Source of the DNA: Acinetobacter phage ABPH49
DNA: 64,000 nt
Direction: 5' to 3' (one strand)
Sequence record: MH533020.1
This document shows, one piece after another, positions 10,060 through 59,928 of the stretch. The notes beneath the pieces are model-generated. The model was not told the origin of the DNA. It saw only the letters and a list, made by a program, of their open reading frames with translations, and made no database searches. The number at the start of each line of letters is the position of its first letter. The stretch's first letter is position 1. Made by a program: the position numbers and the translations under genes.

Positions 10060-10326
10060 TTACTTGTACAGTTTGACAAAGTCGCGGAAAATGTCGTTCC
10101 AGTCAGGACCGTTTTGCAGCTGGTAAGGCTTGCCGTGGTGGTCATAGTTCATGGCGCTAACTTCACCAGTGGCAAAGAAGCCGCTGTCATATGCTGCTTT
10201 CTCGGCCTTGCGGATCACGGCGTTGATCCGGTTTCCGTTCGGGTTGCCGTTGCTCTCAGCGTTCAATTGCTTGGCGGTAACTTCCAGATTTTTCAGGGCT
10301 GTTCTGATGAATTTAACTTTGTTCAC
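10060..10326 (-). CDS. hypothetical protein (88 aa; GTG start)
   Basis: ORF; AAAGGTAA RBS. Confidence 0.55.
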   Translation of the reverse strand: MNKVKFIRTALKNLEVTAKQLNAESNGNPNGNRINAVIRKAEKAAYDSGFFATGEVSAMNYDHHGKPYQLQNGPDWNDIFRDFVKLYK

Positions 10327-10423
10327 TTTACATTACCTTTCGGGGTGGCTGGCGGTGTGCCTTGCCTCTGGAAACAATAATAGGACCTTTCGGCCCTGAA
10401 GTCTTTAGCAAAAAGTGCTATTT

Positions 10424-10581
10424 TTATCGTTTACCGCTTGCACGGTTATTCAGCCAATCCCGAACCATGCGGATCGCCTCATAATTGTAACCTTCAGCCT
10501 GCATTCTGGCCTCTAACTGCATTTTGGTTAGGTTGAGCCTACGGATCCGCCGGGCGTACTGATAAGCCTGATCTTTTGTCA
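10424..10581 (-). CDS. hypothetical small protein (~52 aa; MTKDQAYQYARRIRR...)
   Basis: not in track; RBS GGGAGCGGG; directly abuts the downstream gene. Confidence 0.35.
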
Positions 10582-10764
10582 TTATACCCGCTCCCAAAAA
10601 GCATGATAATCAGATTCTGAGATAAAGACACGTTTACCCCGGTACAAGTAAAACCGGTGTTCGGTCCCGCGTTGCGGGTTGCGGCCCTTGTGAATGTTCA
10701 CGGTCTGGCCTGTTGCCGGGTTGGTGAAGCGCCCCAGCGGGCGCACATTTGTTAACTTAGACAT
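10582..10764 (-). CDS. hypothetical protein (~60 aa; start MSKLTNVRP)
   Basis: internal ATG with G-rich RBS. Confidence 0.5.
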   Translation of the reverse strand: MSKLTNVRPLGRFTNPATGQTVNIHKGRNPQRGTEHRFYLYRGKRVFISESDYHAFWERV

Positions 10765-10784
10765 AATCAACGATATTCCCCGGG

Positions 10785-11093
10785 TCAGTAGGTATAAAAA
10801 CCCTTTTCGGCACAAAATCCGAGATAACCGCCGGTTGTTGTTTCCCGTGCTAACAGGCCGGTTAAATCAACAGCGCCTACCCAGCGGCCCCACGCTTCAA
10901 TATAGAAAACAACATAGTTTGCCGGGCGGGCCTCAGCGTCGCCGTTTTTGTCAAAGTAAACAGCGGCGGCTTTTGCAATCTTAGCTACGGCCTTATCTGC
11001 GGCGGCCTCCGTTGCATAGTTTTTGCAAGGGTTTTTGTTATCTTTACGATACTCTTCAATGCGGGCGGTGATAGTTGCAATGATGTTAGCCAT
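10785..11093 (-). CDS. hypothetical protein (102 aa)
   Basis: follows a -10 TATAAT and the conserved 5' hairpin; AAAGAG RBS. Confidence 0.65.
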   Translation of the reverse strand: MANIIATITARIEEYRKDNKNPCKNYATEAAADKAVAKIAKAAAVYFDKNGDAEARPANYVVFYIEAWGRWVGAVDLTGLLARETTTGGYLGFCAEKGFYTY

Positions 11094-11112
11094 GATGTTT
11101 ACTCTTTAGTCT

Positions 11113-11147
11113 GGCGGGAACCATTCCCGCTTGATGTAATGATTATA
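11113..11147 (-). promoter_or_regulatory. -10 TATAAT plus conserved 5' hairpin GCGGGAA-TGG-TTCCCGC (copy 1 of 5)
   Basis: minus-strand order is -10, ATCAAG, hairpin, RBS, ATG 11093; the -35 is weak. Confidence 0.5.
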
Positions 11148-11261
11148 GCTGATCACGCGGGTGATGTTTAGCAATTCGTGCTATTTTGGGATATTTCTTC
11201 CAGATGATAAAGCTTATCATTTGCATTCTCACCTAAAAGGCCCTGAGAGCGATTCTAAGCG

Positions 11262-11370
11262 TTTTGCCGTTTTGGCTACCCTCTAAAACCGCCTGTAATC
11301 CATTCTAAGCCGCTTTTGCCTGAAGCCTAGCGGTTATACCTCTTTGAAGAGATCTCACTAATGCGAGCTA
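11262..11370. repeat. ~110-bp intergenic repeat copy A (partner at 12606-12715)
   Basis: shared blocks TAAAAC(C/G)GCCTGTAA and AGAGATCTC(A/G)CTAAT; ends in a GAGAA/TTCTC-type palindrome. Confidence 0.45.
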
Positions 11371-11385
11371 TTCTCATCTAGAAAA

Positions 11386-11646
11386 TCAGGAATTATGTGA
11401 TAAAAGCTTGTCAACGCTTGCCAAGTATGATTTAAGCAGGCTGATGCTCTTCATGTGGTCAACGTGCCCGGCCTTGCCGTTCTGGCTGTTGGTCTTAGTT
11501 TTCCTATACCGTGCCAACAACAACAGGTAAAGATCTGTGTTATGGCGGTTAGCGAAAGGCGGCGTTTGCCGCTCTGGTAAAGCCAGTATGTGACAGGGGG
11601 CAAATCGGCGGGATTGGTCCAGATCGTTACGGCGGTTAGCGCCCAT
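11386..11646 (-). CDS. hypothetical protein (86 aa)
   Basis: preceded by a GGGGCC-GTAA-GGCCCC hairpin and a GAGGA RBS. Confidence 0.45.
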   Translation of the reverse strand: MGANRRNDLDQSRRFAPCHILALPERQTPPFANRHNTDLYLLLLARYRKTKTNSQNGKAGHVDHMKSISLLKSYLASVDKLLSHNS

Positions 11647-11686
11647 GAGAAGATCCTCAAAGATGGGGCCTTACGGCCCCTGTTGG

Positions 11687-11920
11687 TTAACGTAAAGCCT
11701 TGACGGTTTCGCCATAGGAATAATCAATAGGCGATCCGGGGTGATCAGCGGTAATCACATCGACGCCGGTTTGCTTCAGCACGATCCCGGCGACCGTTTC
11801 GTAAATAGGCTGGCGGACGTCGTCGCCGCTTTCGTTTGTGGCGTCATAGTAGCCGGTTAGGATTTCGTCGCCCGCTTGAAGGTTTTCAGCGTTGATCAGT
11901 TGGCGCGTTTTAGTAGTCAT
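11687..11920 (-). CDS. hypothetical protein (~77 aa; start MTTKTRQ)
   Basis: AGAGG RBS; GC hairpin 11938-11955 just upstream. Confidence 0.5.
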   Translation of the reverse strand: MTTKTRQLINAENLQAGDEILTGYYDATNESGDDVRQPIYETVAGIVLKQTGVDVITADHPGSPIDYSYGETVKALR

Positions 11921-11963
11921 ACGTAAAGCCTCTATAGTGGGGCCTTGTGCGGCCCCTGTTAGG

Positions 11964-12446
11964 TTAGAAGTTGTGGTAACCGTCGATGCTATTAGGGTTG
12001 ACAAAGGGGAAATGATGATTCAGCGTGTTGCGGCCCCATTGTGCCATATTCATGGAGGCCAGATCCCGGCGCTCAACTGCTGCGGCGTATGCCTCGGCCT
12101 GTTCTGCGGCGTCATTCTCAACAAAGGCGCGGATCTTCTCGCATACGTTATCCGGTAGCCTTGCCAACTCATGATAGGCGAACATGTAGCCATTGAAAGC
12201 GGTGATAACCCGGCCTTGGAACTCAGCAAAGCGTGAATGGTGGTAATTGTAAGACGTTGGATCAATGAAATGCTCTACCGGTGAAACGCGGATATCATCT
12301 GGCTTGCAGAATTGCCAAACAGCCTTGCCAAGGTCTAAGCACAATTCGCCGTCAGCTGCAATATTGATGACGGTTGCATTGATGAGGCCTTTGCTGATGG
12401 AATCGAAAATAACTTTCTGGCCTACGCAATAGATTGACTTTTTCAT
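11964..12446 (-). CDS. hypothetical protein (~160 aa; start MKKSIYCVGQ)
   Basis: AAAGAGG RBS before internal ATG. Confidence 0.55.
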   Translation of the reverse strand: MKKSIYCVGQKVIFDSISKGLINATVINIAADGELCLDLGKAVWQFCKPDDIRVSPVEHFIDPTSYNYHHSRFAEFQGRVITAFNGYMFAYHELARLPDNVCEKIRAFVENDAAEQAEAYAAAVERRDLASMNMAQWGRNTLNHHFPFVNPNSIDGYHNF

Positions 12447-12605
12447 GGTGTTGCCTCTTTGTTGGCGTTGTTTCGTTCTGATGAGGTAATTATAGATCAA
12501 CGGGTGGGAGATGCAAGCGGATTTTTCAACTTTTTGCATCTTTTTCGTTGTTGAGAACGCTTATAGTTTACATTCTCATCTTGCGGGGTGTTTTGTCCAA
12601 ACTGG

Positions 12606-33921: not shown

Positions 33922-34929
33922 ATGACTCTGCAAACTCAAATCTCTACTATCAAAGATGTAAACCGCGCTTATGGCTACACCGATTGTGGCTCTCTGGTCC
34001 GCAAACTGGGTAACAAGAAGCTGAATGCAGCTGACCGAAACATCGCGTATGACCTGAACTTTGACGACCTCCTGATGATGGGTTATAAACTCTCTGGCAA
34101 CGGCACCTGTGACTATACCGGCTTACCTTTCTTCGGTACCGATAACGAAGCCTTCGCCCCGACCATCGAGCGTATCGACGACTGCAAGGGCTATGTCCGT
34201 GGCAATATCGCCATTGTTGGTGCCCGGGCAAACTATCTCAAAGATAAGTTTATCGACAAGAACCATCAGGACCCTTCCGATCTGGAGCTGAGCAAAGACG
34301 ACATCAAGATCATCAACGCCATGCTGCCGCGTGTACACGCCAAGGGTTATCTGGAAGCCCTGAAGGGGAAATACATCCCTAACTTCGCAACCGAAGAAGA
34401 ACTGGTAAAAATGCTGGACGAGAAGTGGTTCTTACCATCACTCCACCGCATCAACGACCAGCTGGAAGAGATCGCCAAAGGATCTGCTCCAGAGGATGGT
34501 AACATTTCCCTTCAGGGCGTGGGTGCGAAACTGGAAGTTCCTGAGGTGGATACCTCAGAAGAGGTTGATGCAGCACCTCTGGAGATCGACACCTCAACCC
34601 CGGCAGAAGATGAAGCAGAGAAGCCTTCTTTGCCAGATGATGTGGAGATTGCCGCGAGTTACGCAAAACTCTGCCGGGCACTGGGTAAAGTGATGACTGT
34701 GAATATCACCTTCAGCCAGTACAAGAGTATCTACACCAACAAGCGTTGCCCGTTCACCGGTGAAGAGTTGACAGAGCGTTACCCTCTGATCCTCGACCGA
34801 TCGTTGCCTCTGGAGTCTGGCAACGTGAAGATGACCAGCAACCGAGTTGGGCAGGCAATGAACGAATTTATCGACGCCACAGGCCTGTCTGTTTTCGAAC
34901 TGGCTAAAAACCTGAAGAAGTTGGCGTAA
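33922..34929 (+). CDS. protein with two degenerate Endonuclease VII-like (beta-beta-alpha-Me) repeats
   Basis: internal duplication; KGYVRGNIAIVGARANYLKDKF and SGNVKMTSNRVGQAMNEF resemble T4 Endo VII GKVRGLLCNLCNAAEGQ.KHKF, but the Cys/His ligands are mostly absent. Confidence 0.65.
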   Translation: MTLQTQISTIKDVNRAYGYTDCGSLVRKLGNKKLNAADRNIAYDLNFDDLLMMGYKLSGNGTCDYTGLPFFGTDNEAFAPTIERIDDCKGYVRGNIAIVGARANYLKDKFIDKNHQDPSDLELSKDDIKIINAMLPRVHAKGYLEALKGKYIPNFATEEELVKMLDEKWFLPSLHRINDQLEEIAKGSAPEDGNISLQGVGAKLEVPEVDTSEEVDAAPLEIDTSTPAEDEAEKPSLPDDVEIAASYAKLCRALGKVMTVNITFSQYKSIYTNKRCPFTGEELTERYPLILDRSLPLESGNVKMTSNRVGQAMNEFIDATGLSVFELAKNLKKLA

Positions 34930-38145: not shown

Positions 38146-38362
38146 TGAGCGTCCAACAGTCATGTACGCAGTATATGACACCGTACTCAACGAGATCCCG
38201 CAGATGGGTCACGTACTGACACCAACTCAAAAGGCGGTGTTTGGTATTGAACGAGATGCAGCATACATTGTTGCGAACTGCAACTTTAAGCATCCCAATC
38301 GGTTCCGAGTAGTTCCTGTTGAGATTTTCCATGTTGACAACGTGGAACAACCCATGCAATAA
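38135..38362 (+). CDS. hypothetical protein (75 aa)
   Basis: GGAGG RBS. Confidence 0.6.
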   Translation: MNNNERPTVMYAVYDTVLNEIPQMGHVLTPTQKAVFGIERDAAYIVANCNFKHPNRFRVVPVEIFHVDNVEQPMQ

Positions 38363-38376
38363 TGCTCCACATGAAG

Positions 38377-38411: not shown

Positions 38412-38846
38412 ATGCAATTCGATATTGATGATTACCGTGTGACAATCAAAGACAGCAAGTCTGACACGATTATCGATGCCCTCTTTGGACACCACCCGGG
38501 CAATAAGTTTGCGGTGATCTCCCTCCCAGATGAGTTGATGCACCCCGCCATAATCCCTTTTGTGAAGTTTAAGATAAAAATGATGATTGACTTCACGGAG
38601 AGAAAGAGTAAGATGAATTCCACTTCTCGATACATTCCCAACCGGGATCGTCCAACGAAGTGGGTGGTGCGGAAGTTCAAGTCCGAGTTTGAAAAGGTTC
38701 ATGGTCACGACATTGAGGTCGCGAAGACAAACTGGGATTACAACAAGGCACCAAAGCATAACAACACAGGCCGGTTTGGGGACCTGAAAGCATTCTGCGG
38801 GATGCGAAAAGGACAGGAACTTGACCTCGTAGCGAAAGGAGAGTGA
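38412..38846 (+). CDS. hypothetical protein (144 aa)
   Basis: AGGAG RBS. Confidence 0.65.
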   Translation: MQFDIDDYRVTIKDSKSDTIIDALFGHHPGNKFAVISLPDELMHPAIIPFVKFKIKMMIDFTERKSKMNSTSRYIPNRDRPTKWVVRKFKSEFEKVHGHDIEVAKTNWDYNKAPKHNNTGRFGDLKAFCGMRKGQELDLVAKGE

Positions 38847-38847
38847 G

Positions 38848-39363
38848 ATGACTACGCCATACTCAGAGTACATGGCCCGTCAGTTGGAGGGGTGTGTAAA
38901 CGACCCAGAGGGTCCTCGATACTACGGTAATATTGAGGTGGATCTCGAAGATATAACTGATCAGCAAGAAAAAGCGTTGATGGAACAGTTCAAATCTATC
39001 GGCGTGTCCTGTCAGATGATAAACAATCTGGACAGGCCGGTATTGATAGGTTTTGAGAGTGAAGAATACATAGGTTGGTCAATTTTATCCTGCGTAACTC
39101 TCGGCCTGTTTAACAAGACTCATTACGATGTTGGTCGAGATCTTGTCCGGGTGAGTATGTATGCCATGAAGTATGGACTGCAAAAATACACCGTGGAGGA
39201 GAATGCGGTGTATCTCGAGTTCATGATTTATTTGGCAAACAACCAGTTCTGTAATTGGGAAGATGCGGTAACACGGGTAAACTCTGTGTACCCAGATCTC
39301 CCCCGGTCAGAGATCAACAAGGCTGGGGATCGTATTCGTCGTGAAGTTGCGGGGTTGGAATAA
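38848..39363 (+). CDS. hypothetical protein (171 aa)
   Basis: GGAGAG RBS. Confidence 0.65.
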   Translation: MTTPYSEYMARQLEGCVNDPEGPRYYGNIEVDLEDITDQQEKALMEQFKSIGVSCQMINNLDRPVLIGFESEEYIGWSILSCVTLGLFNKTHYDVGRDLVRVSMYAMKYGLQKYTVEENAVYLEFMIYLANNQFCNWEDAVTRVNSVYPDLPRSEINKAGDRIRREVAGLE

Positions 39364-39860
39364 TGATTGATTACCAAATTGGGGATTTGTTCCCACACGC
39401 TTACGCCTCGGTACTGGAAGGCCACCCAACGGTTGTTGCACACTGTTGCAACTGCTTCAACACGATGAAGTCTGGGATTGCACCGCTGGTTGCGAAGAAC
39501 TTCCCAGAGGCAGAGTCCGTTGATAAGCTGACCACCAAAGGTGATCGTGGCAAACTGGGAACCACAACAGAGGCCTTCAGTCAGGGCATTCTGGTGTTCA
39601 ACCTGTACGGCCAGTTTGGCTACTGGAAACGTCGTGAAGGTAAGATGGACCTCGAGTACCCAGCCCTTGACTCTGCCCTCGGTCAAATGGCCGCAAGCAT
39701 TCACGCAAAGTGCCGGGTCAATGATATCCGTCCCAACGAGGTGAAGGTACTCTTGCCGATGATCGGTGCCGGTCTGGCAGGTGGTGATTGGAACGTAATT
39801 TCCCAGCTGATCGAGAAAAATCTCGGTAAATTCAGCGTTACTGTTTTCAAATTGAAATAG
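39363..39860 (+). CDS. macro-domain protein (ADP-ribose binding/processing; Poa1p/YmdB-like)
   Basis: N-terminal VVAHCCNCFNTMKSGIA and C-terminal LLPMIGAGLAGGDWNVI match the two glycine-rich macro-domain motifs. Confidence 0.7.
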   Translation: MIDYQIGDLFPHAYASVLEGHPTVVAHCCNCFNTMKSGIAPLVAKNFPEAESVDKLTTKGDRGKLGTTTEAFSQGILVFNLYGQFGYWKRREGKMDLEYPALDSALGQMAASIHAKCRVNDIRPNEVKVLLPMIGAGLAGGDWNVISQLIEKNLGKFSVTVFKLK

Positions 39861-39868
39861 GAGAGAAG

Positions 39869-41236
39869 ATGAGCGAGTACAAAGATCAGTACGAAGGTAA
39901 AGTGTTTGGTGGTGAGTTGGCCCTGATGGCCTGCTATGCTTGCAACCTGTACGGTAATCTGCGTAAAGACATGCGGGGCCGATTCAAAGACAACACTTCT
40001 GTGGAGACGTCTTCCGTGGAGAAGCTGGTTGTTGACAACGACACCATGATCGCGATCACCCGCAACACCGCGTATGCGTTGGTCGGCCCGTTGGTTGAGA
40101 GAGCGGTTAGTAAATCCTACGGCATGATGGCTCTATGGGACGCTGCTGTAGCAGAGCACAAAGTGGCTGTCGTTGCAGGGTTCAAAGGCCGCAAGTACCC
40201 AAGTACCGGCCAATTCCGCAATGCGATCCGCCATGCAAAACAAGTGCTGTCGTTCGAAGGCCTTGACGCCGAGGGTAATCCGATGTACGCTCCCGGCCCA
40301 TACCCGAAAATTGCCTACGGCGGTACTGTTAAGATCCACGGCACCAACGGGAGTTTCTTCAAGCTTCACCCGGAAGCCGAGATCGTTTACCAGTCCAAAG
40401 AGCGCGTTCTGTCTCTGGAGAGCGACAACTATGGCTTCTATGCCAAGTACAAGCCGAAAGAGGACGTAATTAACGGCATCTTCGGTGAGGTCGTCGAATA
40501 CCTGAAAGGATCCGGCCTTGATGATGGTGAGATTTATCCGATCCGCATCAGTGGTGAGTACGCCGGTGAAGGTATCCAGCGCGGGGTTGCAGTTGGTGAA
40601 GTGCCACGCTTCTTTGCCATCTTCGGTATTGCCTTTGGCCCAGAGCAGAACTGGTTGCCGGAAGTTGATGGTTTCGGTCATGATCTTGAAGATCATCGCA
40701 TCTTCAACATCGTCGACCTCGGCGGCGTAGACATTCTGTATCTGGACGTGGAAAACCCTCAGGCAATCCAGAATGAGCTGATTGAGCGGACGCTCGCGGT
40801 AGAGAAAGAGTGCCCGGTTGGTAAGTTCTTCGGCGTGACTGGTGTCGGAGAAGGTAAGGTATGGAAGCCTCTGGCTGCGGAATACGCAGGGGACACTGGC
40901 CTGTGGTTCAAGGTGAAGGGTGAGAAGCACTCCACCACCAAGGTCAAGACACTGGCGGAGATCGACCCGGTTAAGCTGGCTAACATCGCGGAGTTTGTTG
41001 AGTACGCACTGACCGATGCTCGTCTGGATCAGGGGTTGGCAGAACTCTTCCCAGATGGTAAGCTGGATATCCGTCGCACTGGTGACCTGCTGCGTTGGGT
41101 TAACCGCGACATCCACAAAGAAGAGTCTGACGTTCTGGAGAAGTCCGGCCTGACGATGAAGGATATCTCCAACGCCGTCGGTCTGAAGACCCGCACTTGG
41201 TTCTTCGAGCAGATTAACAATCAGGAGGTGGTGTAA
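39869..41236 (+). CDS. ATP-dependent RNA ligase (Rnl2-like nucleotidyltransferase)
   Basis: motif I KIHGTN (adenylated lysine, as in T4 Rnl2), motif IV-like EYAGEGIQ, motif V-like LWFKVKGEKH. Confidence 0.75.
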   Translation: MSEYKDQYEGKVFGGELALMACYACNLYGNLRKDMRGRFKDNTSVETSSVEKLVVDNDTMIAITRNTAYALVGPLVERAVSKSYGMMALWDAAVAEHKVAVVAGFKGRKYPSTGQFRNAIRHAKQVLSFEGLDAEGNPMYAPGPYPKIAYGGTVKIHGTNGSFFKLHPEAEIVYQSKERVLSLESDNYGFYAKYKPKEDVINGIFGEVVEYLKGSGLDDGEIYPIRISGEYAGEGIQRGVAVGEVPRFFAIFGIAFGPEQNWLPEVDGFGHDLEDHRIFNIVDLGGVDILYLDVENPQAIQNELIERTLAVEKECPVGKFFGVTGVGEGKVWKPLAAEYAGDTGLWFKVKGEKHSTTKVKTLAEIDPVKLANIAEFVEYALTDARLDQGLAELFPDGKLDIRRTGDLLRWVNRDIHKEESDVLEKSGLTMKDISNAVGLKTRTWFFEQINNQEVV

Positions 41237-41592
41237 TGGACATCATTCAAAGCCGTGATGGTAAGGTGGTGATCGCTGGAAACAGCCAGAGCTTGGTTAT
41301 CTCCAACTCCAACGGGGTTGTGACAGTGAATGGTGTGGAGATCTCACAGGTTTCCAACTGCTCGCTGGTCATCAAAATCGATGGCAACGCCGGACCAGTA
41401 ACCCTGAATGGCAGCGGCAATGTCGAAGTTTGGGGCAGTGTTGACGGCAACGTGCAGTCAATGTCTGGTGACATCGATATTCGCGGTTCGGTAGGTAGCG
41501 GTGTAACAAGTGCATCCGGCAATATCGAGGTCGGTGAAGAAGTCTGGGGCAACGTAACAACAATGTCCGGGGATATCCTCACCAAGCGATAA
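41236..41592 (+). CDS. beta-helical repeat protein (bactofilin/DUF583-like periodicity)
   Basis: 118 aa made of about 6-residue G-x-V/I repeats (GNVEVWGSVDGNVQSMSGDIDIRGSVGSGV...). Confidence 0.6.
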   Translation: MDIIQSRDGKVVIAGNSQSLVISNSNGVVTVNGVEISQVSNCSLVIKIDGNAGPVTLNGSGNVEVWGSVDGNVQSMSGDIDIRGSVGSGVTSASGNIEVGEEVWGNVTTMSGDILTKR

Positions 41593-41602
41593 GAACCTTT
41601 TG

Positions 41603-41628
41603 CCGCCCTTAGGTGGGCGGCTTTTCCC
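41603..41628 (+). terminator. rho-independent terminator GCCGCCC-TTAGGT-GGGCGGC-TTTTCC
   Basis: GC stem plus T-run. Confidence 0.6.
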
Positions 41629-41640
41629 ATTGGAGGTAAA

Positions 41641-42078
41641 ATGCGATTATGTGCCACTCTGTTGGCCTTTACACTGTCTTTGGCACCAGCTTTATCGTAT
41701 GCCCAAGAGAGTGCAAAGAAACCCCATCAGCGCGTCATACACACGTGCAGCACTAAAGACAACTCGACGTATGCCCTTGCCTGCAACATCTACAAGGAGG
41801 CCGAAGGAGAGGGTCTGGAGGGGCAAATGGCGATCGGTTTTGTGACGATCAACCGGGCGCAGCATGATAAGTTCCCGACGTCGGTCCGAAAAGTAGTTTA
41901 CCAGCACAAACAATTCAGCTGGACAATCTACAAAAACGGGTATAAGATTCGTAATCAAGAGGTGTGGGAACAGAGCATTAAAATCTCTAAGTTCCTGATA
42001 AAGATAAGGAATATGCCGGTGCTGTATAATTACCTTGACAACACACATGGTTCCCTGTACTTTCACACCACGCAATAA
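41641..42078 (+). CDS. secreted cell-wall hydrolase (SleB/CwlJ family, Hydrolase_2), candidate endolysin
   Basis: signal peptide MRLCATLLAFTLSLAPALSYA; ALACNIYKEAEGEGLEGQMAIGFVTINRAQHDKFPTSVRKVVYQHKQFSW matches the SleB-type signature. Confidence 0.7.
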   Translation: MRLCATLLAFTLSLAPALSYAQESAKKPHQRVIHTCSTKDNSTYALACNIYKEAEGEGLEGQMAIGFVTINRAQHDKFPTSVRKVVYQHKQFSWTIYKNGYKIRNQEVWEQSIKISKFLIKIRNMPVLYNYLDNTHGSLYFHTTQ

Positions 42079-42154
42079 AGCCTTACTGGTCAAAGTCTTT
42101 TAAGAAGACAGTGGTGATCGGTAACCACCAGTTTTATAAACTAAAGGAGCCATC

Positions 42155-42397
42155 ATGAAAGGTCGTCTGTTCAAGTCCCTCAAGTCACTGCAAATCGTTG
42201 CAATCTTCCTTGCACCAATGGCGATTTGGATCTTCGTGGGACAGTTCGTCGCAGGGATGTTTTTCTCCGGCGTGTACGCTGAACACCCAAGCATCGTGCC
42301 GTTTATGTTCATGGCTGGGTTTGCAGTTGGACGCATCGCAGAGTTGGTAATGTGCGGCATGGTGGAAGTATTCAAAAGAAAAGAGGGGATCGAGTGA
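42155..42397 (+). CDS. small 2-TM membrane protein (holin-like candidate)
   Basis: 80 aa, two hydrophobic helices, charged C-terminus; follows the cell-wall hydrolase. Confidence 0.55.
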   Translation: MKGRLFKSLKSLQIVAIFLAPMAIWIFVGQFVAGMFFSGVYAEHPSIVPFMFMAGFAVGRIAELVMCGMVEVFKRKEGIE

Positions 42398-52628: not shown

Positions 52629-53186
52629 GTGAACTATTCAGATTTTCCAGATATTCAGCAAGATGAGTGGAGCTTGACAAGACCTACGTTCCCAACGCCA
52701 AAGGGTGGGGATTTAACGGTTGTTGGGTGGTCGGGCAGGGTAGGTAGGATAGGTGCACATAAAGCCTATATCGTGGAGTGCAGTGAATGTAAAAAGGATC
52801 CATGCTTGCATGGGGGTGGCGTTTTTAAAATCTCTAAACAAGGCCTCAGCAAAGGGGGAATACCCTGCGGCTGTGCAAGAAGGGTGTATTGGACACCAGA
52901 GCAATATAAGGTGTTGATCGAAAGAATCCTGAATGGGAGCGAATTAAAATTTTTAGGCTTCGTAGATAACAATGTGGAAAATGGGAACAAGACAAAGGTG
53001 AGGGTATTTTGTCAAAAACATGGTGAGTGTAACAAAACTTCGATAAGACAAGCTCTGAGATCAGGAATAAGTTGCCCTTCGTGCACTGCCGATAGGCTGG
53101 TGAAAATAATTAATCTCAAAAAGTCATCTCGCCACGCCGGATTGCGAAAGATATTTTGGAAGCCTCCCCAAAAAGCTATACTTTGA
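52629..53186 (+). CDS. Cys-rich zinc-ribbon protein, truncated paralog of 53219-53884 (homing-endonuclease-like)
   Basis: GTG start with AAAGGGG RBS; shares ECS.C.KD...G.PC.C.RR.YT.EQ and C.KHG...SG.SCPSC with its neighbour; low-GC region. Confidence 0.55.
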   Translation: MNYSDFPDIQQDEWSLTRPTFPTPKGGDLTVVGWSGRVGRIGAHKAYIVECSECKKDPCLHGGGVFKISKQGLSKGGIPCGCARRVYWTPEQYKVLIERILNGSELKFLGFVDNNVENGNKTKVRVFCQKHGECNKTSIRQALRSGISCPSCTADRLVKIINLKKSSRHAGLRKIFWKPPQKAIL

Positions 53187-53218
53187 GAACCTCAGACAAA
53201 AAGTCGGGTGGGAAGAAT

Positions 53219-53884
53219 ATGGTACAAATTGAGTGTTCGATCTGTGCAAAAGACATGTATGCAGAGGCAGGACTTTGTGATGGGGTATTTTATACTCTTC
53301 CGAGACACTTGCTGAGAGAACCTCCGCAGCTCCCTTGTCGTTGTTCTAGAAGACCCAGTTACACTAAAGAGCAATTGGACTACAGGGCAAAAAAGGTCTG
53401 TGAGGGGTTAGGTTATGAATTTGTTGAGTGGGTTAAAGAAATAAGGACATCAGGGAAGATACGTTACAGATGCAAAATCCACGGAATTCACTCAATAAGG
53501 ATGAAAAATATGGTTAATGGAACAGGGTGCCCAGAGTGTGCAGGAAAAAACCAAAAACAATGCTACATAAATACGGTATACGACAACCGTACAGCTGTAG
53601 CTATTAAGTTTGGTATCACCAAAGACAGCGACAAGAGGGTTAAACATCAGAATTACAGAAACCTCTTCCAGATGGAACAATCTGCGGTGTACGAGTTCAA
53701 AACCGTTAAGGCGTGCAAGGATGCAGAGAAGGCCTGCAAGGGCGAGCTGAAGTGCGGGGTTCTGTCAAAGAGAGAGCTGAAGGATGGGCACTCAGAGACT
53801 GTTTCTCTGTTGGATCTGGAGAAGGTAATTGCCATTTACGAGAGATTTGGTGGTGTGAGGGTGTTGACACCAGCCAAGGAGTAG
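53219..53884 (+). CDS. T5orf172/MUG113-type (GIY-YIG-superfamily) domain protein with N-terminal Cys-rich zinc ribbon
   Basis: C-terminal AIKFGITKDSDKRVKHQNYRNLFQ ... AEKACKGEL ... GHSETV matches the T5orf172 signature (IKIGIT..R..); N-terminus is paralogous to 52629-53186. Confidence 0.6.
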   Translation: MVQIECSICAKDMYAEAGLCDGVFYTLPRHLLREPPQLPCRCSRRPSYTKEQLDYRAKKVCEGLGYEFVEWVKEIRTSGKIRYRCKIHGIHSIRMKNMVNGTGCPECAGKNQKQCYINTVYDNRTAVAIKFGITKDSDKRVKHQNYRNLFQMEQSAVYEFKTVKACKDAEKACKGELKCGVLSKRELKDGHSETVSLLDLEKVIAIYERFGGVRVLTPAKE

Positions 53885-57924: not shown

Positions 57925-59928
57925 ATGGCAAATTTCGCCAAGTTCGCAGAAGCAGTTAAAGCACGTTTCGTTCAACTGGAAGCACGCGGTCTGTTCAAGG
58001 TCGAGCTGTCGAAAGACGAGATCTGGGACGCATATATGGCAGCGTTCCCGGCGGGCACCAACGAAATGTTCCGTGAGCGCCGTGAGTACGACTGTAACAC
58101 CTGTAAGCAATTCCTGCGTACCGCCGGTGGGTCTGTGGCAATCGGCGACAACGGTGAGCTGCTGTCAATCTGGGAAGTCGACGCTGAAGGTTACTACCAA
58201 GAAGTGGCCGACAAGATGGCGGCGCTGGTCAAGTCTGCTCAGATCCGTGGCAAGTTCTACCACTACGAAAACCGTGTGGGCATGAAAGAAACCCGCAACC
58301 TGTCCAATGTGGGTGACAAAGTTGAAGTGTACAACCACTTCTACGCTCCGCTGGCAAACAGCAGTGTCAAGCGTAAAGACGACATCGCAACTCAGCTGGG
58401 CCGCGAGCGTGCCAACAAAGACGTGCTGCTGCGGACGATGGAAGAGATCAGTCTCGATTCGGCAGAAACCGTACTGGAGCTGATTGCCCAGAACAGCCTG
58501 TACCGTGGAGAAGAGCACAAGCGCACCATCGAGCTGTTTGTACGACTGAAGCGTGCGTTCGATAAAGCCGACAACAAAGACACGTTCGCGTGGGTTGAGA
58601 GCCAGAAACTGGGTGAAGCTTCCAAGATCCGTAACACCGTGATCGGCACCCTGCTGTCCGACCTGTCAGAAGGTCAGGATCTGGAGAAGGCGGTTAAGTC
58701 GTTCGAAAGCAAAGTGGCACCGACCAACTACAAGCGCCCTACCGCGCTGGTAACTCCGGCCATGATCAAAAAGGCACAGGAGAAGGTTGAAGAGTTGGGC
58801 CTGATCGATGCACTGCCGCGCCGCTTCGCAGTGGCTACTGACCTGAACATCACGAACGTACTGTTCGCTGACCGTTCCGTCAAGCCTGCGATGAACGTGT
58901 TCGAAGAGCTGGCGCAGGGTACCGGCGTCAAAGCCAAGGACTTCGGCAAGGTTGAAGAGATCGGCATCGAAGACTTCCTGACCAAGGTACTGCCGTCGGC
59001 AGAATCTCTGGAAGTTCTGGTGGAGAACGGCCACACTGGCAACCTGATGAGCCTGATCGCTCCTCAGCACGCAGACGCTCCGAACCTGATGAAGTGGGGC
59101 AATAAGTTCAGCTGGTCGTACAACGGCGATGTTACCGACTCCATTAAGGAGCGTGTGAAGTCTGCCGGTGGTTGTGTCGAAGGTGCACTGCGTGTGTCTC
59201 TGGCATGGAGCAACCCGGACGATCTGGACCTGCACATGCGTACCCCGGACGGCCACCACATCTACTACGGTAACAAGCGTGGGGGCGGTGCGGAGCTGGA
59301 TCTGGACATGAACGGCATGGACAAACATGATGCCAACAACCCGGTAGAGAACATCATCTTCGTCAGCGAAGGTAAGATCAAAGAGGGTGTCTACACCGTG
59401 TGGGTAAATCAGTTCCGCCGTCGTTCTGGTGACCGTGTTGGTTTCACCGTGCAGCTGGATCACAAAGGTACGCAGTTTGACTTCAGCCACCCGAAAGAGC
59501 ACCGCTCCGGCGATGTGAATGTGGTTAAGTTCAACTACAGCCGTAAGGATGGCATCAAGATCATCGAATCGATGCCTCATACCAAGCAGTCGAAGGAAGT
59601 GTGGGGCGTAACCACCGAGAAGTTCCAGAAGGTCAGTATGGTGATGAACTCGCCAAACCACTGGGACGGTGAGCAGACCGGCAACAAGCACGTGTTCTTC
59701 ATCCTGCAAGGTTGTAAGAACCCTGACGCGGCACGCGGCTTCTACAATGAGTACCTGCGTGGCGATCTGGAAGAGCACCGTAAAGTGTTCGAGCTGCTGG
59801 GTGGCAAGATGAAGGTTGAGCCGTCCGACGATCAACTGAGTGGTGTTGGCTTCTCCAGCACGAACCGCAATAAAGTTGTCGTAAAAGTGACTGGAAAGGT
59901 TGCACGAACCCTGAAAGTTGTGTTCTAA
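57925..59928 (+). CDS. large hypothetical protein (667 aa), probably highly expressed
   Basis: AAGAGGAG RBS, own promoter, strongly biased codon usage (CGT/CTG/CCG), hairpin downstream. Confidence 0.8.
   Translation: MANFAKFAEAVKARFVQLEARGLFKVELSKDEIWDAYMAAFPAGTNEMFRERREYDCNTCKQFLRTAGGSVAIGDNGELLSIWEVDAEGYYQEVADKMAALVKSAQIRGKFYHYENRVGMKETRNLSNVGDKVEVYNHFYAPLANSSVKRKDDIATQLGRERANKDVLLRTMEEISLDSAETVLELIAQNSLYRGEEHKRTIELFVRLKRAFDKADNKDTFAWVESQKLGEASKIRNTVIGTLLSDLSEGQDLEKAVKSFESKVAPTNYKRPTALVTPAMIKKAQEKVEELGLIDALPRRFAVATDLNITNVLFADRSVKPAMNVFEELAQGTGVKAKDFGKVEEIGIEDFLTKVLPSAESLEVLVENGHTGNLMSLIAPQHADAPNLMKWGNKFSWSYNGDVTDSIKERVKSAGGCVEGALRVSLAWSNPDDLDLHMRTPDGHHIYYGNKRGGGAELDLDMNGMDKHDANNPVENIIFVSEGKIKEGVYTVWVNQFRRRSGDRVGFTVQLDHKGTQFDFSHPKEHRSGDVNVVKFNYSRKDGIKIIESMPHTKQSKEVWGVTTEKFQKVSMVMNSPNHWDGEQTGNKHVFFILQGCKNPDAARGFYNEYLRGDLEEHRKVFELLGGKMKVEPSDDQLSGVGFSSTNRNKVVVKVTGKVARTLKVVF

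What the first reader, a model, noticed from the sequence alone, without database searches (positions are those of the whole stretch)
39363..41592. Macro domain protein directly upstream of an Rnl2-type RNA ligase (and a beta-helical repeat protein): candidate RNA-repair / anti-ADP-ribosylation module
The 165-aa product of 39363-39860 has both diagnostic macro-domain glycine-rich motifs. The next gene encodes a ligase with the KIHGTN motif I, as in T4 Rnl2. Macro domains remove ADP-ribose from proteins or nucleic acids. Poa1p-type macro domains also dephosphorylate ADP-ribose-1''-phosphate produced in tRNA-splicing/RNA-ligation pathways. Their juxtaposition with an RNA ligase suggests a coupled pathway that either repairs host-inflicted RNA breaks (anticodon nucleases) or reverses nucleic-acid ADP-ribosylation (DarT-like or mRNA ADP-ribosyltransferase defences), i.e. 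a phage counter-defence module. The immediately following 118-aa beta-helical repeat protein has unknown function but bactofilin-like periodicity.
Basis: partly seen in the sequence, partly recalled or inferred. Interest (0 to 1): 0.7.

Follow-up and report, generated by a model that had tools for sequence, protein, structure and literature searches.

The report
Phage macrodomain beside Rnl2-like RNA ligase
The three genes are real (an ADP-ribose-removing macrodomain, an Rnl2-like RNA ligase and a small beta-solenoid protein), but they lie together through shared ancestry in one phage subfamily, and the macrodomain most likely protects phage DNA on its own.

Summary
The window comes from a Vequintavirinae phage, 98.7% identical to Serratia phage Kashira. 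All three ORFs exist as described.

- **Macrodomain (39363-39860).** It belongs to the same PHROG family as T4 Tk.4/AdfM and is 32% identical to it. It keeps the His, Asn and Gln residues that mutagenesis showed are needed in SCO6735, an enzyme that removes ADP-ribose from thymidine in DNA.
- **Ligase (39869-41236).** It is a divergent Rnl2-type ligase with all nucleotidyltransferase motifs and the Rnl2 C-domain. Its first 107 residues are a small beta domain, which is a separate upstream gene in sister phages.
- **Third protein (41236-41592).** It has a strong 17-residue repeat and no detectable homologue of known function.

The proposed coupled module is not supported.
- Only 8 of 61 ligase loci have a macrodomain within 10 kb, and only 12 of 80 macrodomain loci have the ligase.
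- Nearly all of these are Vequintavirinae-like.
- The closest macrodomain relatives lack the ligase nearby.
- Elsewhere this macrodomain family sits next to NAD+/ADP-ribose genes.
- No Tpt1/KptA, 2H or Pnkp gene was found.

Verdict: known gene kinds, adjacent by synteny, of modest interest.

The parts
38334..38363 (+). Sigma-70-like promoter (TTGACA, 18 nt spacer, TG, AATAAT) ahead of the tightly packed gene run 38412-42078
   Evidence: 11 of 12 matches with a TG extension, the best site in 36-44 kb. This is a consensus match only, and the number of sites in the region was not above the shuffled expectation.
39363..39860 (+). Macrodomain protein, 165 aa, ALC1-like class, in the T4 Tk.4/AdfM and SCO6735/BT1257 subfamily. 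It is a predicted ADP-ribosyl hydrolase.
   Evidence: phrog_335 at 1.3e-47, and T4 Tk.4 falls in the same PHROG at 1.3e-65. 32% identity to T4 Tk.4, E 4e-20. PDB profile hits. Family-invariant H27, N30 and Q84 correspond to SCO6735 H24, N27 and Q85.
39869..40189 (+). N-terminal domain of the ligase (aa 1-107): a five- to six-strand beta domain plus a helix. It belongs to a small phage-only domain family of unknown function and is fused here to the ligase.
40190..41236 (+). Rnl2-type RNA ligase core (aa 108-455): a nucleotidyltransferase domain with motif I lysine K155, plus an Rnl2-like helical C-domain
   Evidence: phrog_548 at 3.6e-58. Invariant K155, H157, G158, N160, E230, E328, G329, K348 and K350. 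The profile hits T4 Rnl2 2hvq residues 32-325 at 1.8e-10. The Foldseek top hit is 2hvr at 1.2e-9.
41236..41592 (+). 118-aa Gly/Val/Ser-rich repeat protein with a 17-residue period, a predicted beta-solenoid of unknown function
   Evidence: phrog_3163 at 9e-13. Periodicity. Alignment A3 shows the invariant recurring SG motif. No Pfam, NCBIfam or PDB match. Found only next to the ligase in Vequintavirinae-like loci.
41641..42078 (+). SleB-like cell-wall hydrolase with a signal-peptide-like N-terminus. It is the downstream anchor of the conserved synteny block and is truncated here by a 1-nt deletion.
   Evidence: Pfam Hydrolase_2 at 3.2e-15. A 1-nt deletion relative to Kashira and ChuuTotoro near 42072.

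Best explanation
These are three functionally independent accessory genes in one densely packed early/middle gene run of a Vequintavirinae phage.

(1) The 165-aa protein is a Tk.4/AdfM- and SCO6735-type macrodomain hydrolase.
- It binds ADP-ribose in the cleft formed by the N-x5-KSGIA and PMIGAGLAGG loops.
- It positions the distal ribose with Gln84, which is held by Asn30.
- It most likely removes ADP-ribose that DarT2-type toxins put on thymidine in phage single-stranded DNA, so that replication can continue.
- This function is inferred from homologues.

(2) The 455-aa protein is an ATP-dependent Rnl2-type RNA ligase.
- Lys155 would be adenylylated, AMP passed to a 5'-phosphate, and a 3'-OH/5'-PO4 nick sealed in duplex RNA.
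- Its natural substrate is unknown, as it is for T4 Rnl2.
- It has gained by gene fusion a small phage-specific beta domain that probably helps bind a substrate or partner.

(3) The 118-aa protein is a 17-residue-repeat beta-solenoid that travels with the ligase.

The macrodomain and ligase are direct neighbours because the small ORFs that separate them in sister phages are missing in the Kashira lineage. The evidence does not show that they act in one pathway.
For: Identity of the phage.

Macrodomain:
- Same PHROG as T4 Tk.4, 32% identity, and the same ranking of PDB neighbours.
- T4 tk.4 knock-outs become sensitive to DarTG2.
- SCO6735 (profile E 4.4e-18) cleaves thymidine-linked ADP-ribose, and H24Y, N27S and Q85A lose all or almost all activity (H24Y through a disrupted fold). 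The equivalent residues H27, N30 and Q84 are invariant in this family.
- Kashira also carries a NADAR gene (Pfam 8.3e-32). NADARs of Vequintavirinae are reported to counter DarTG1.

Ligase. A separate DNA ligase is annotated in Kashira.

Independence of the two genes:
- The macrodomain HMM finds a copy within 10 kb in 8 of 61 ligase loci and in 4 of 23 ligase lineages.
- The ligase HMM finds a copy in 12 of 80 macrodomain loci.
- The macrodomain occurs in 2941 GenBank phage records and the ligase in 158.
- L068-L071 carry macrodomain, N-domain protein and hydrolase with no ligase or beta-solenoid.
- Other ORFs separate the two genes in L003 and L006.
- The commonest neighbours of the macrodomain family are NAMPT, Sir2, NADAR, HAD, Prs and NMNAT-Nudix genes.
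Against: - The two genes are adjacent, on the same strand, 8 nt apart, and probably co-transcribed.
- The order macrodomain ... ligase is kept across Vequintavirinae genera down to about 45% protein identity.
- Three unrelated lineages also hold the pair within 1.4-3.3 kb: L048, L062 and Vibrio Thalassavirus.
- The macrodomain is about as close to the ADP-ribose-1''-phosphatase Poa1p as to DarG or TARG1.
- The T4 evidence is genetic and from a preprint. The biochemically proven phage AdfM (PhiKZ gp104) is only a remote relative: 17% identity, hhalign probability 91%.
- Nothing here measures activity.
Confidence: 0.6

Rival explanations
1. Coupled RNA repair. In one version the macrodomain clears ADP-ribose-1''-phosphate made by a Tpt1/KptA-dependent ligation pathway. 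In another it removes ADP-ribose from RNA (base-linked or 5'-phosphate-linked) so that the Rnl2-type ligase can reseal the RNA.
For: - Direct adjacency and likely co-transcription.
- Conserved order within Vequintavirinae.
- Similarity to Poa1p (1.8e-14) and TARG1 (2e-15). TARG1-class macrodomains reverse 5'-phosphate RNA ADP-ribosylation (titles and abstracts of PMC6582358 and PMC9458441).
- The general link between Macro, KptA, 2H and RNA repair is described in PMC9503650.
- Kashira has 20 tRNA genes and a HAD_SAK_2 'RNA-repair' phosphatase.
- Some ligase homologues are fused to a metallophosphoesterase or sit next to an Rnl1-type ligase.
Against: - 53 of 61 ligase loci and 68 of 80 macrodomain loci lack the partner within 10 kb.
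- The closest macrodomain relatives have no ligase nearby.
- Most macrodomain-bearing phages lack this ligase family.
- No KptA/Tpt1, 2H or Pnkp was found in PHROG and Pfam scans of about 65 ORFs of the window and the rest of the Kashira genome, or in its annotation.
- No neighbour of the ligase is conserved across lineages.
Confidence: 0.1
2. The macrodomain works on small ADP-ribose derivatives, such as products of host TIR, Sir2 or RES NADases or Appr-1''-p. It would destroy immune signals or toxic metabolites, or return ADP-ribose to the phage's NAD+ salvage, again independently of the ligase.
For: - In the 80 closest IMG/VR macrodomain loci the commonest neighbours are NAMPT (33 loci), Sir2 (28), NADAR (25), HAD phosphatases (28 and 20), Prs (16), NMNAT-Nudix (16) and SLOG (16).
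- In Vibrio phage Athena the macrodomain lies next to a ribose-phosphate pyrophosphokinase gene.
- Kashira encodes NAMPT, Prs and HAD_SAK_2.
- PMC9503650 argues that phage macrodomains mainly target soluble ADP-ribose derivatives.
Against: - In this phage the macrodomain is about 70 kb from the NAMPT/Prs cluster.
- Many of the NAD-island loci probably belong to a few related marine and T4-like lineages, so the counts are not independent.
- The only experimental data for close relatives (T4 Tk.4, SCO6735) concern thymidine-linked DNA ADP-ribosylation.
- The mobile loop after Gln84 is rich in Lys and Arg (K89, R90, R91, K94). In SCO6735 that loop was linked to DNA binding.
Confidence: 0.2
3. The N-domain-ligase fusion and the beta-solenoid form their own two- or three-part unit, a ligase with a targeting domain and a scaffold. 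This unit would have been inserted as a cassette between the macrodomain and the hydrolase.
For: - The ligase and beta-solenoid are present together in the 8 Vequintavirinae-like ligase loci that carry the macrodomain (L001-L007, L009) and in 11 of 12 ligase-bearing macrodomain loci. Both are absent from L068-L071.
- The N-domain-ligase fusion recurs in at least 7 diverged sequences, 30-86% identical.
Against: - The beta-solenoid is absent from all ligase loci outside the Vequintavirinae-like clade.
- The N-domain persists without the ligase in L068-L071.
- The N-domain is missing from the Klebsiella Mydovirus-type loci that do have the ligase.
- There is no functional information for either small protein.
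Confidence: 0.1

Closest known systems
T4 Tk.4 = AdfM (anti-DarT factor, macrodomain)
   Same: Same PHROG family (phrog_335). 32% identity over the full length. The H-x-C-N-C, N-L-Y-x-Q and P-x-I-G-A-G motifs are shared, and the ranking of PDB neighbours is the same.
   Different: The window protein has a longer basic loop after Gln84 that T4 Tk.4 lacks. Its match to the DarG models is weaker: PADLOC 3.7e-4 and partial, against 1.3e-9 for Tk.4. No phenotype is known for it.
Streptomyces coelicolor SCO6735 (PDB 5E3B) and Bacteroides BT1257 (2FG1/2AFC), ALC1-like macrodomains
   Same: These are the best solved relatives (profile E 4.4e-18 and 2.8e-22). Gln replaces the catalytic Lys of TARG1 and DarG. 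The His, Asn and Gln residues tested by mutagenesis in SCO6735 are conserved, and the mobile loop is long and basic.
   Different: They are cellular proteins. SCO6735 Val25 corresponds to Cys28 here. SCO6735 also acts on proteins, so substrate range cannot be transferred with certainty.
Yeast Poa1p (ADP-ribose-1''-phosphate phosphatase, PDB 6LFU)
   Same: Same macrodomain class and the shared H-x-C-N-C motif. Profile E 1.8e-14.
   Different: Poa1p acts downstream of Tpt1 in tRNA splicing. No Tpt1/KptA or 2H enzyme was found in this phage.
T4 RNA ligase 2 (Rnl2, gp24.1; PDB 2HVQ/2HVR)
   Same: KIHGTN motif I and motifs III, IV and V. The architecture of nucleotidyltransferase domain plus helical C-domain is the same. 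It is the best sequence-profile hit and the best Foldseek hit.
   Different: About 15% identity in the structural alignment. The window protein is far below the TIGR02307 Rnl2 equivalog cut-off (15 bits against 197). It has an extra N-terminal 107-aa domain that T4 Rnl2 lacks.
KptA/Tpt1 - 2H - Macro RNA-repair networks and phage NAD+/ADP-ribose gene islands (Iyer et al. 2022, PMC9503650)
   Same: That paper already states that phage Macro, NADAR and Nudix genes lie in early regions together with RNA-repair genes. The macrodomain family here is indeed often next to NAD+/ADP-ribose genes.
   Different: This locus has no KptA, 2H, NADAR, Sir2 or NAMPT gene next to the macrodomain. In this phage the NADAR and NAMPT genes lie 60-70 kb away.
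Bactofilins (Pfam PF04519)
   Same: Similar size and a repeat period of about 17-18 residues per turn, which suits a beta-helix (the bactofilin period is from my own knowledge).
   Different: No Pfam, NCBIfam or PDB sequence match at permissive thresholds. The fold was not modelled.

Membership tests
Macrodomain superfamily (ALC1-like class) | Sequence or profile similarity to solved macrodomains over the whole domain | tested here: met
   phmmer 1.6e-7 to 2FG1. Family profile 2.8e-22 to BT1257, 4.4e-18 to SCO6735, 2e-15 to TARG1 and 1e-9 to DarG, covering about 155 positions.
Macrodomain superfamily (ALC1-like class) | Pfam Macro (PF01661) at the gathering threshold | tested here: not met
   The window protein has no Pfam hit at E <= 0.01. 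Homologues 36-51% identical do carry precomputed PF01661 hits.
AdfM / Tk.4-type phage anti-DarT2 macrodomain | Homology to T4 Tk.4 | tested here: met
   BLASTP 32% identity, E 4e-20. Both proteins have phrog_335 as best hit.
AdfM / Tk.4-type phage anti-DarT2 macrodomain | Residues required for thymidine-ADP-ribose hydrolysis in the SCO6735 subclass (His24, Asn27, Gln85) | tested here: met
   H27, N30 and Q84 align with them and are invariant in 41 family members. Mutagenesis data are from PMC9411070.
AdfM / Tk.4-type phage anti-DarT2 macrodomain | Protects the phage from DarTG2, and removes ADP-ribose from DarT2-modified ssDNA | not testable with these tools
   This needs plaque assays and enzyme assays. 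The evidence exists only for T4 Tk.4, SCO6735 and the remote PhiKZ gp104.
Rnl2-type RNA ligase | Covalent nucleotidyltransferase motifs I (KxHGxN), III, IV and V | tested here: met
   K155, H157, G158, N160, E230, E328, G329, K348 and K350 are invariant in 46 sequences. They align with T4 Rnl2 KIHGTN, GEFAG, EGYV and IKCK.
Rnl2-type RNA ligase | Rnl2-specific helical C-terminal domain | tested here: met
   The profile alignment runs to residue 325 of the 335-residue 2hvq chain. The model has helices at 367-453. Full-length T4 Rnl2 is the Foldseek top hit.
Rnl2-type RNA ligase | NCBIfam TIGR02307 (Rnl2 equivalog) and Pfam PF09414 curated cut-offs | tested here: not met
   TIGR02307 gives 15.2 bits against a cut-off of 197. 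PF09414 gives 19.2 bits against 27, although most homologues pass PF09414. This is a divergent sister clade and not the T4 equivalog.
Rnl2-type RNA ligase | ATP-dependent sealing of 3'-OH/5'-PO4 nicks in duplex RNA | not testable with these tools
Tpt1/KptA - 2H - Macro or Pnkp - Rnl RNA-repair system | An end-healing or 2'-phosphotransferase partner (Pnkp, KptA/Tpt1, 2H) in the locus or the genome | tested here: not met
   None was found in PHROG scans of 28 window ORFs, in a Pfam scan of 33 further ORFs of 130-400 aa from the window and Kashira, or in the Kashira annotation. ORFs under 130 aa were not all scanned. A HAD_SAK_2 phosphatase lies about 70 kb away.
Tpt1/KptA - 2H - Macro or Pnkp - Rnl RNA-repair system | Macrodomain-ligase linkage conserved across unrelated lineages | tested here: not met
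   8 of 61 ligase loci (4 of 23 lineages) and 12 of 80 macrodomain loci.
Bactofilin | Match to the bactofilin domain (PF04519) or to solved bactofilins | tested here: not met
   No Pfam family at E <= 1, no NCBIfam family, and no PDB hit better than E 0.05. Only the 17-residue period is compatible. The fold was not modelled.

The most novel reading that the evidence does not exclude
Within Vequintavirinae the conserved run macrodomain - N-domain - Rnl2-like ligase - beta-solenoid might be a true unit that repairs ADP-ribosylated or ADP-ribose-capped RNA. A TARG1/SCO6735-class macrodomain would strip ADP-ribose from RNA ends or bases. The ligase, guided by its fused beta domain and perhaps held on the solenoid, would then reseal the RNA. 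This would be a counter-defence against RNA-targeting ADP-ribosyltransferases or nucleases, and it would give a phage Rnl2-type ligase a biological role for the first time.
Probability: 0.07. Interest if true: 0.65.

Novelty: new member of a known kind. Interest (0 to 1): 0.3.

Why it matters
If the main reading holds, this adds a Vequintavirinae member to the newly recognised AdfM class of phage 'orphan antitoxin' macrodomains.
- The Kashira genome also has a NADAR gene, so these phages, like T4, would carry erasers for both the guanine-type (DarT1) and thymine-type (DarT2) DNA ADP-ribosylation.
- That is useful for predicting host range of therapeutic phages on DarTG-bearing strains.

The ligase matters less directly. 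The biological role of phage Rnl2-type ligases is still unknown. The recurrent fusion to a small phage-only beta domain, and the joint presence or absence with a beta-solenoid, give two concrete leads.

The negative result is also useful: adjacency in a packed phage early region is weak evidence for a shared pathway.

Tried and rejected
- phmmer of the single ligase sequence against the PDB found nothing. A profile was needed.
The exhaustive phmmer search gave 10 hits. At least three of the large ones (P0242, P0243, P0247) look spurious, being repeat or low-complexity proteins.
- PhiKZ gp104 was considered as a direct model for the macrodomain and rejected as too remote.
- The terminator-like hairpin at 42111-42128 was rejected as an operon end. 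It lies inside the full-length hydrolase ORF of Kashira.
- A first greedy ORF call picked many wrong-strand ORFs. It was replaced by a strand-aware call.
- The 'Serglycin' hits are artefacts of the GS linkers used to join proteins.


Full report
**Source and observation**

The window is 98.7% identical over the tested 4 kb to Serratia phage vB_SmaM-Kashira (Vequintavirinae, 144.5 kb). It is 78% identical to its relative ChuuTotoro. The ligase protein is 100% identical to 'RNA ligase 2 [Acinetobacter phage ABPH49]'.

- 39363-39860, 165 aa
- 39869-41236, 455 aa
- 41236-41592, 118 aa

All are on the + strand in a run of abutting genes. The run starts after a strong sigma-70-like site at 38334-38363. 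In Kashira the macrodomain gene and the 118-aa gene are annotated 'hypothetical' and the ligase 'RNA ligase'.

**The macrodomain**

The window protein has no Pfam hit of its own. Other evidence places it clearly:
- It matches phrog_335 ('phosphatase') at 1.3e-47.
- By phmmer it hits the solved macrodomains BT1257, SCO6735 and Poa1p.
- A 41-member family profile hits BT1257 (2.8e-22), SCO6735 (4.4e-18), human TARG1 (2e-15), yeast Poa1p (1.8e-14) and the DarG macrodomains (1e-9).

This is the ALC1-like class. The family is very common in phages: tblastn finds it in 2941 GenBank phage records, including the T-even gene tk.4. Direct comparison with T4 Tk.4 gives 32% identity, E 4e-20. T4 Tk.4 also has phrog_335 as best hit and shows the same order of PDB neighbours.

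Three papers bear on function.
- A transposon screen in T4 found tk.4 to be the one gene needed on a DarTG2 host, and a clean deletion confirmed it. The gene was renamed adfM (preprint 10.1101/2025.11.20.689424).
[quoted passage not shown] Q85A loses all activity and N27S almost all; H24Y also loses it, through a disrupted fold. Gln85 stands where TARG1 and DarG have their catalytic lysine (PMC9411070).
- PhiKZ gp104, also named AdfM, removes ADP-ribose from DarT2-modified ssDNA (PMC13309987).

In the printed alignments SCO6735 H24, N27 and Q85 correspond to H27, N30 and Q84 of the window protein. These three residues are invariant in the 41-member alignment. The loop after Gln84 is long and basic (K89, R90, R91, K94), like the SCO6735 loop linked to DNA binding.

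Two cautions apply.
- PhiKZ gp104 is only remotely related: 17% identity, hhalign probability 91%.
- The window protein matches DarG models more weakly than T4 Tk.4 does.

**The ligase**

- Residues 108-450 match phrog_548 ('RNA ligase') at 3.6e-58.
- A 46-sequence alignment has invariant K155, H157, G158 and N160 (motif I, VKIHGTN), E230 (motif III), E328 and G329 (motif IV), and K348 and K350 (motif V).
- Its profile hits full-length T4 Rnl2 (2hvq, residues 32-325 of 335) at 1.8e-10. That covers both the nucleotidyltransferase domain and the Rnl2-specific C-domain.
- An AlphaFold2 model (pLDDT 91.7) has T4 Rnl2 as its best Foldseek match in the PDB. Naegleria Rnl5, archaeal Rnl3 and other ligases follow.
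- The protein falls far below the curated cut-offs of TIGR02307 (15 bits against 197) and PF09414 (19 against 27).

It is therefore a divergent sister clade of canonical Rnl2. The clade occurs in only 158 GenBank phage records. Kashira has a separate DNA ligase gene, so this enzyme need not be the replicative ligase.

**The N-terminal domain of the ligase**

Residues 1-107 are not part of Rnl2.
- In other Vequintavirinae-like contigs the ligase is 345-350 aa. The equivalent of residues 1-107 is a separate ORF immediately upstream (L003 9448-9780, L006 9761-10315).
- The fused form recurs in at least seven diverged sequences, so it is a real gene fusion.
- The domain is a five- to six-strand beta unit followed by a helix (pLDDT 87).
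- It resembles many uncharacterised small phage proteins in BFVD and spans several PHROGs of unknown function.
- An exhaustive phmmer search of 1.8 billion representatives gave only 10 hits.

**The 118-aa protein**

It matches only phrog_3163, of unknown function. It has a clear 17-residue period: autocorrelation 0.88 at lags 17 and 34, against -0.16 +/- 0.13 for shuffles. The motif G-x-V-x-T-x-S-G-D-[IV] recurs and is conserved in relatives. It shows no similarity to bactofilin or to any solved protein. Homology to bactofilin is unsupported.

**Is it a module?**

This was tested in both directions.

*Starting from the ligase.* I fetched 61 IMG/VR loci that encode ligase relatives, with up to 10 kb on each side.
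- A macrodomain-family HMM finds a copy in only 8 of them. Six are Vequintavirinae-like contigs, and the other two are L048 and L062.
- When the ligases are clustered at 55% identity, 4 of 23 clusters contain a linked locus.
- No neighbour family of the ligase is conserved across lineages.

*Starting from the macrodomain.* I fetched the 80 best macrodomain loci.
- 12 have the ligase within 10 kb, and all are Vequintavirinae-like.
- The four closest macrodomain relatives (L068-L071, 52-56% identity) read macrodomain, standalone N-domain protein, SleB-like hydrolase. They have no ligase and no beta-solenoid.
- Across the 80 loci the most frequent neighbours are NAD+/ADP-ribose genes: NAMPT (33 loci), Sir2 (28), NADAR (25), HAD phosphatases (28 and 20), Prs (16), NMNAT-Nudix (16) and SLOG (16).

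*Within the Vequintavirinae clade.* The macrodomain and ligase are usually 0.5-1.5 kb apart with small ORFs between them. Direct abutment is a feature of the Kashira/ChuuTotoro lineage.

*Search for repair partners.* No Pnkp, KptA/Tpt1 or 2H enzyme appeared in PHROG or Pfam scans of about 65 ORFs, or in the Kashira annotation.
- The window has no tRNA gene.
- Kashira has 20 tRNA genes about 75 kb away, plus NAMPT, Prs and a HAD_SAK_2 phosphatase.
- Kashira also has a NADAR gene at 69873-70433.
- Vequintavirinae NADARs have been shown to counter DarTG1 (PMC11825919).

**Interpretation**

The best-supported picture is three independent accessory genes held together by clade synteny.

*Macrodomain.*
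- Shown here: it is a Tk.4/SCO6735-type macrodomain with the required residues.
- Inferred: it removes ADP-ribose from thymidine in phage ssDNA and so counters DarT2-type toxins. With the NADAR gene it would give a T4-like pair of erasers.

*Ligase.*
- Shown here: it is an Rnl2-type enzyme with an added domain.
- Inferred: it seals RNA nicks. The natural substrate is unknown.
- Some homologues are fused to a metallophosphoesterase or sit next to an Rnl1-type ligase. This keeps an RNA-repair role plausible for the clade.

Evidence that keeps the coupled-pathway idea alive at low probability:
- the tight spacing and likely co-transcription
- conservation of gene order within the subfamily
- three other lineages with the two genes within 1.4-3.3 kb
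- the Poa1p/TARG1 affinity of the macrodomain
- reported reversal of RNA 5'-phosphate ADP-ribosylation by TARG1-class macrodomains

The general idea that phage Macro genes lie with RNA-repair genes in early regions, and that Macro can serve KptA-dependent repair, is already in the literature (PMC9503650).

**Verdict**

The domains are right, and counter-defence is likely for the macrodomain. The macrodomain-ligase module is not supported. These are new members of known kinds. The N-domain fusion and the ligase/beta-solenoid cassette are the only mildly new features. Interest 0.3.

Noticed in passing
window 42060-42080 (within 41641-42159): The SleB-like cell-wall hydrolase has a 1-nt deletion (ACCACGGCAA to ACCACGCAA) relative to Kashira and ChuuTotoro. 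This ends the ORF at 42078 and removes about 27 C-terminal residues. It could be a real frameshift or a sequencing error.
   Followed up: partly
window 52629-53186 and 53156-53884: Two overlapping ORFs match the N- and C-terminal halves of one endonuclease family (phrog_681 positions 91-235 and 318-540). Kashira annotates a single 410-aa 'putative endonuclease' at the same place. This may be a second frameshift in the window.
   Followed up: no
L068-L071 (e.g. L068 9905-11472): In the closest macrodomain relatives the order is macrodomain, standalone N-domain protein, SleB hydrolase, with no ligase and no beta-solenoid. The ligase and beta-solenoid therefore behave as an insertion/deletion cassette inside a conserved block.
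   Followed up: partly
L072-L138 (80 macrodomain loci from IMG/VR): This macrodomain family is most often embedded in NAD+/ADP-ribose gene islands: NAMPT, Sir2, NADAR, HAD phosphatases, Prs, NMNAT-Nudix and SLOG. That context differs from the one in the window.
   Followed up: partly
Kashira ON287374.1 57616-60836 and 69873-70433 (L066), outside the window: The phage lineage carries NAMPT, ribose-phosphate pyrophosphokinase and a HAD_SAK_2 'RNA-repair type' phosphatase in a row. It also carries a NADAR gene (Pfam 8.3e-32) annotated as hypothetical, and 20 tRNA genes at 52.4-56.5 kb.
   Followed up: partly
P0032, P0026 and L008 (ligase 10166-11170; Rnl1-like ORF 11321-12457): Some ligase homologues carry an N-terminal calcineurin-like metallophosphoesterase domain. 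L008 also has a T4 Rnl1-type ligase (PF09511, 2.5e-18) immediately downstream. This points to RNA end-healing and repair in that lineage.
   Followed up: partly
phrog_16099; L003 9448-9780; L006 9761-10315: The standalone N-domain proteins fall in a PHROG labelled 'methyltransferase'. They are 110-184 aa beta-domain proteins, and the only weak structural echo is the non-catalytic RFTS domain of DNMT1. The label is probably misleading.
   Followed up: partly
window about 33300: Transcription direction switches here. ORFs below about 33.3 kb lie on the - strand and those above on the + strand, and the GC-skew sign changes at 32-34 kb. It is a divergent control region of the early genes.
   Followed up: no
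window 33922-34929: A 335-aa protein matches an HNH-endonuclease PHROG (1.8e-51). Its N-terminal 90 residues also match families labelled 'decoy of host sigma70' and 'Srd anti-sigma factor'.
   Followed up: no
window 57925-59928: A 667-aa protein matches phrog_1735 end to end (3.4e-278). It is a large, highly conserved phage protein family with no known function.
   Followed up: no
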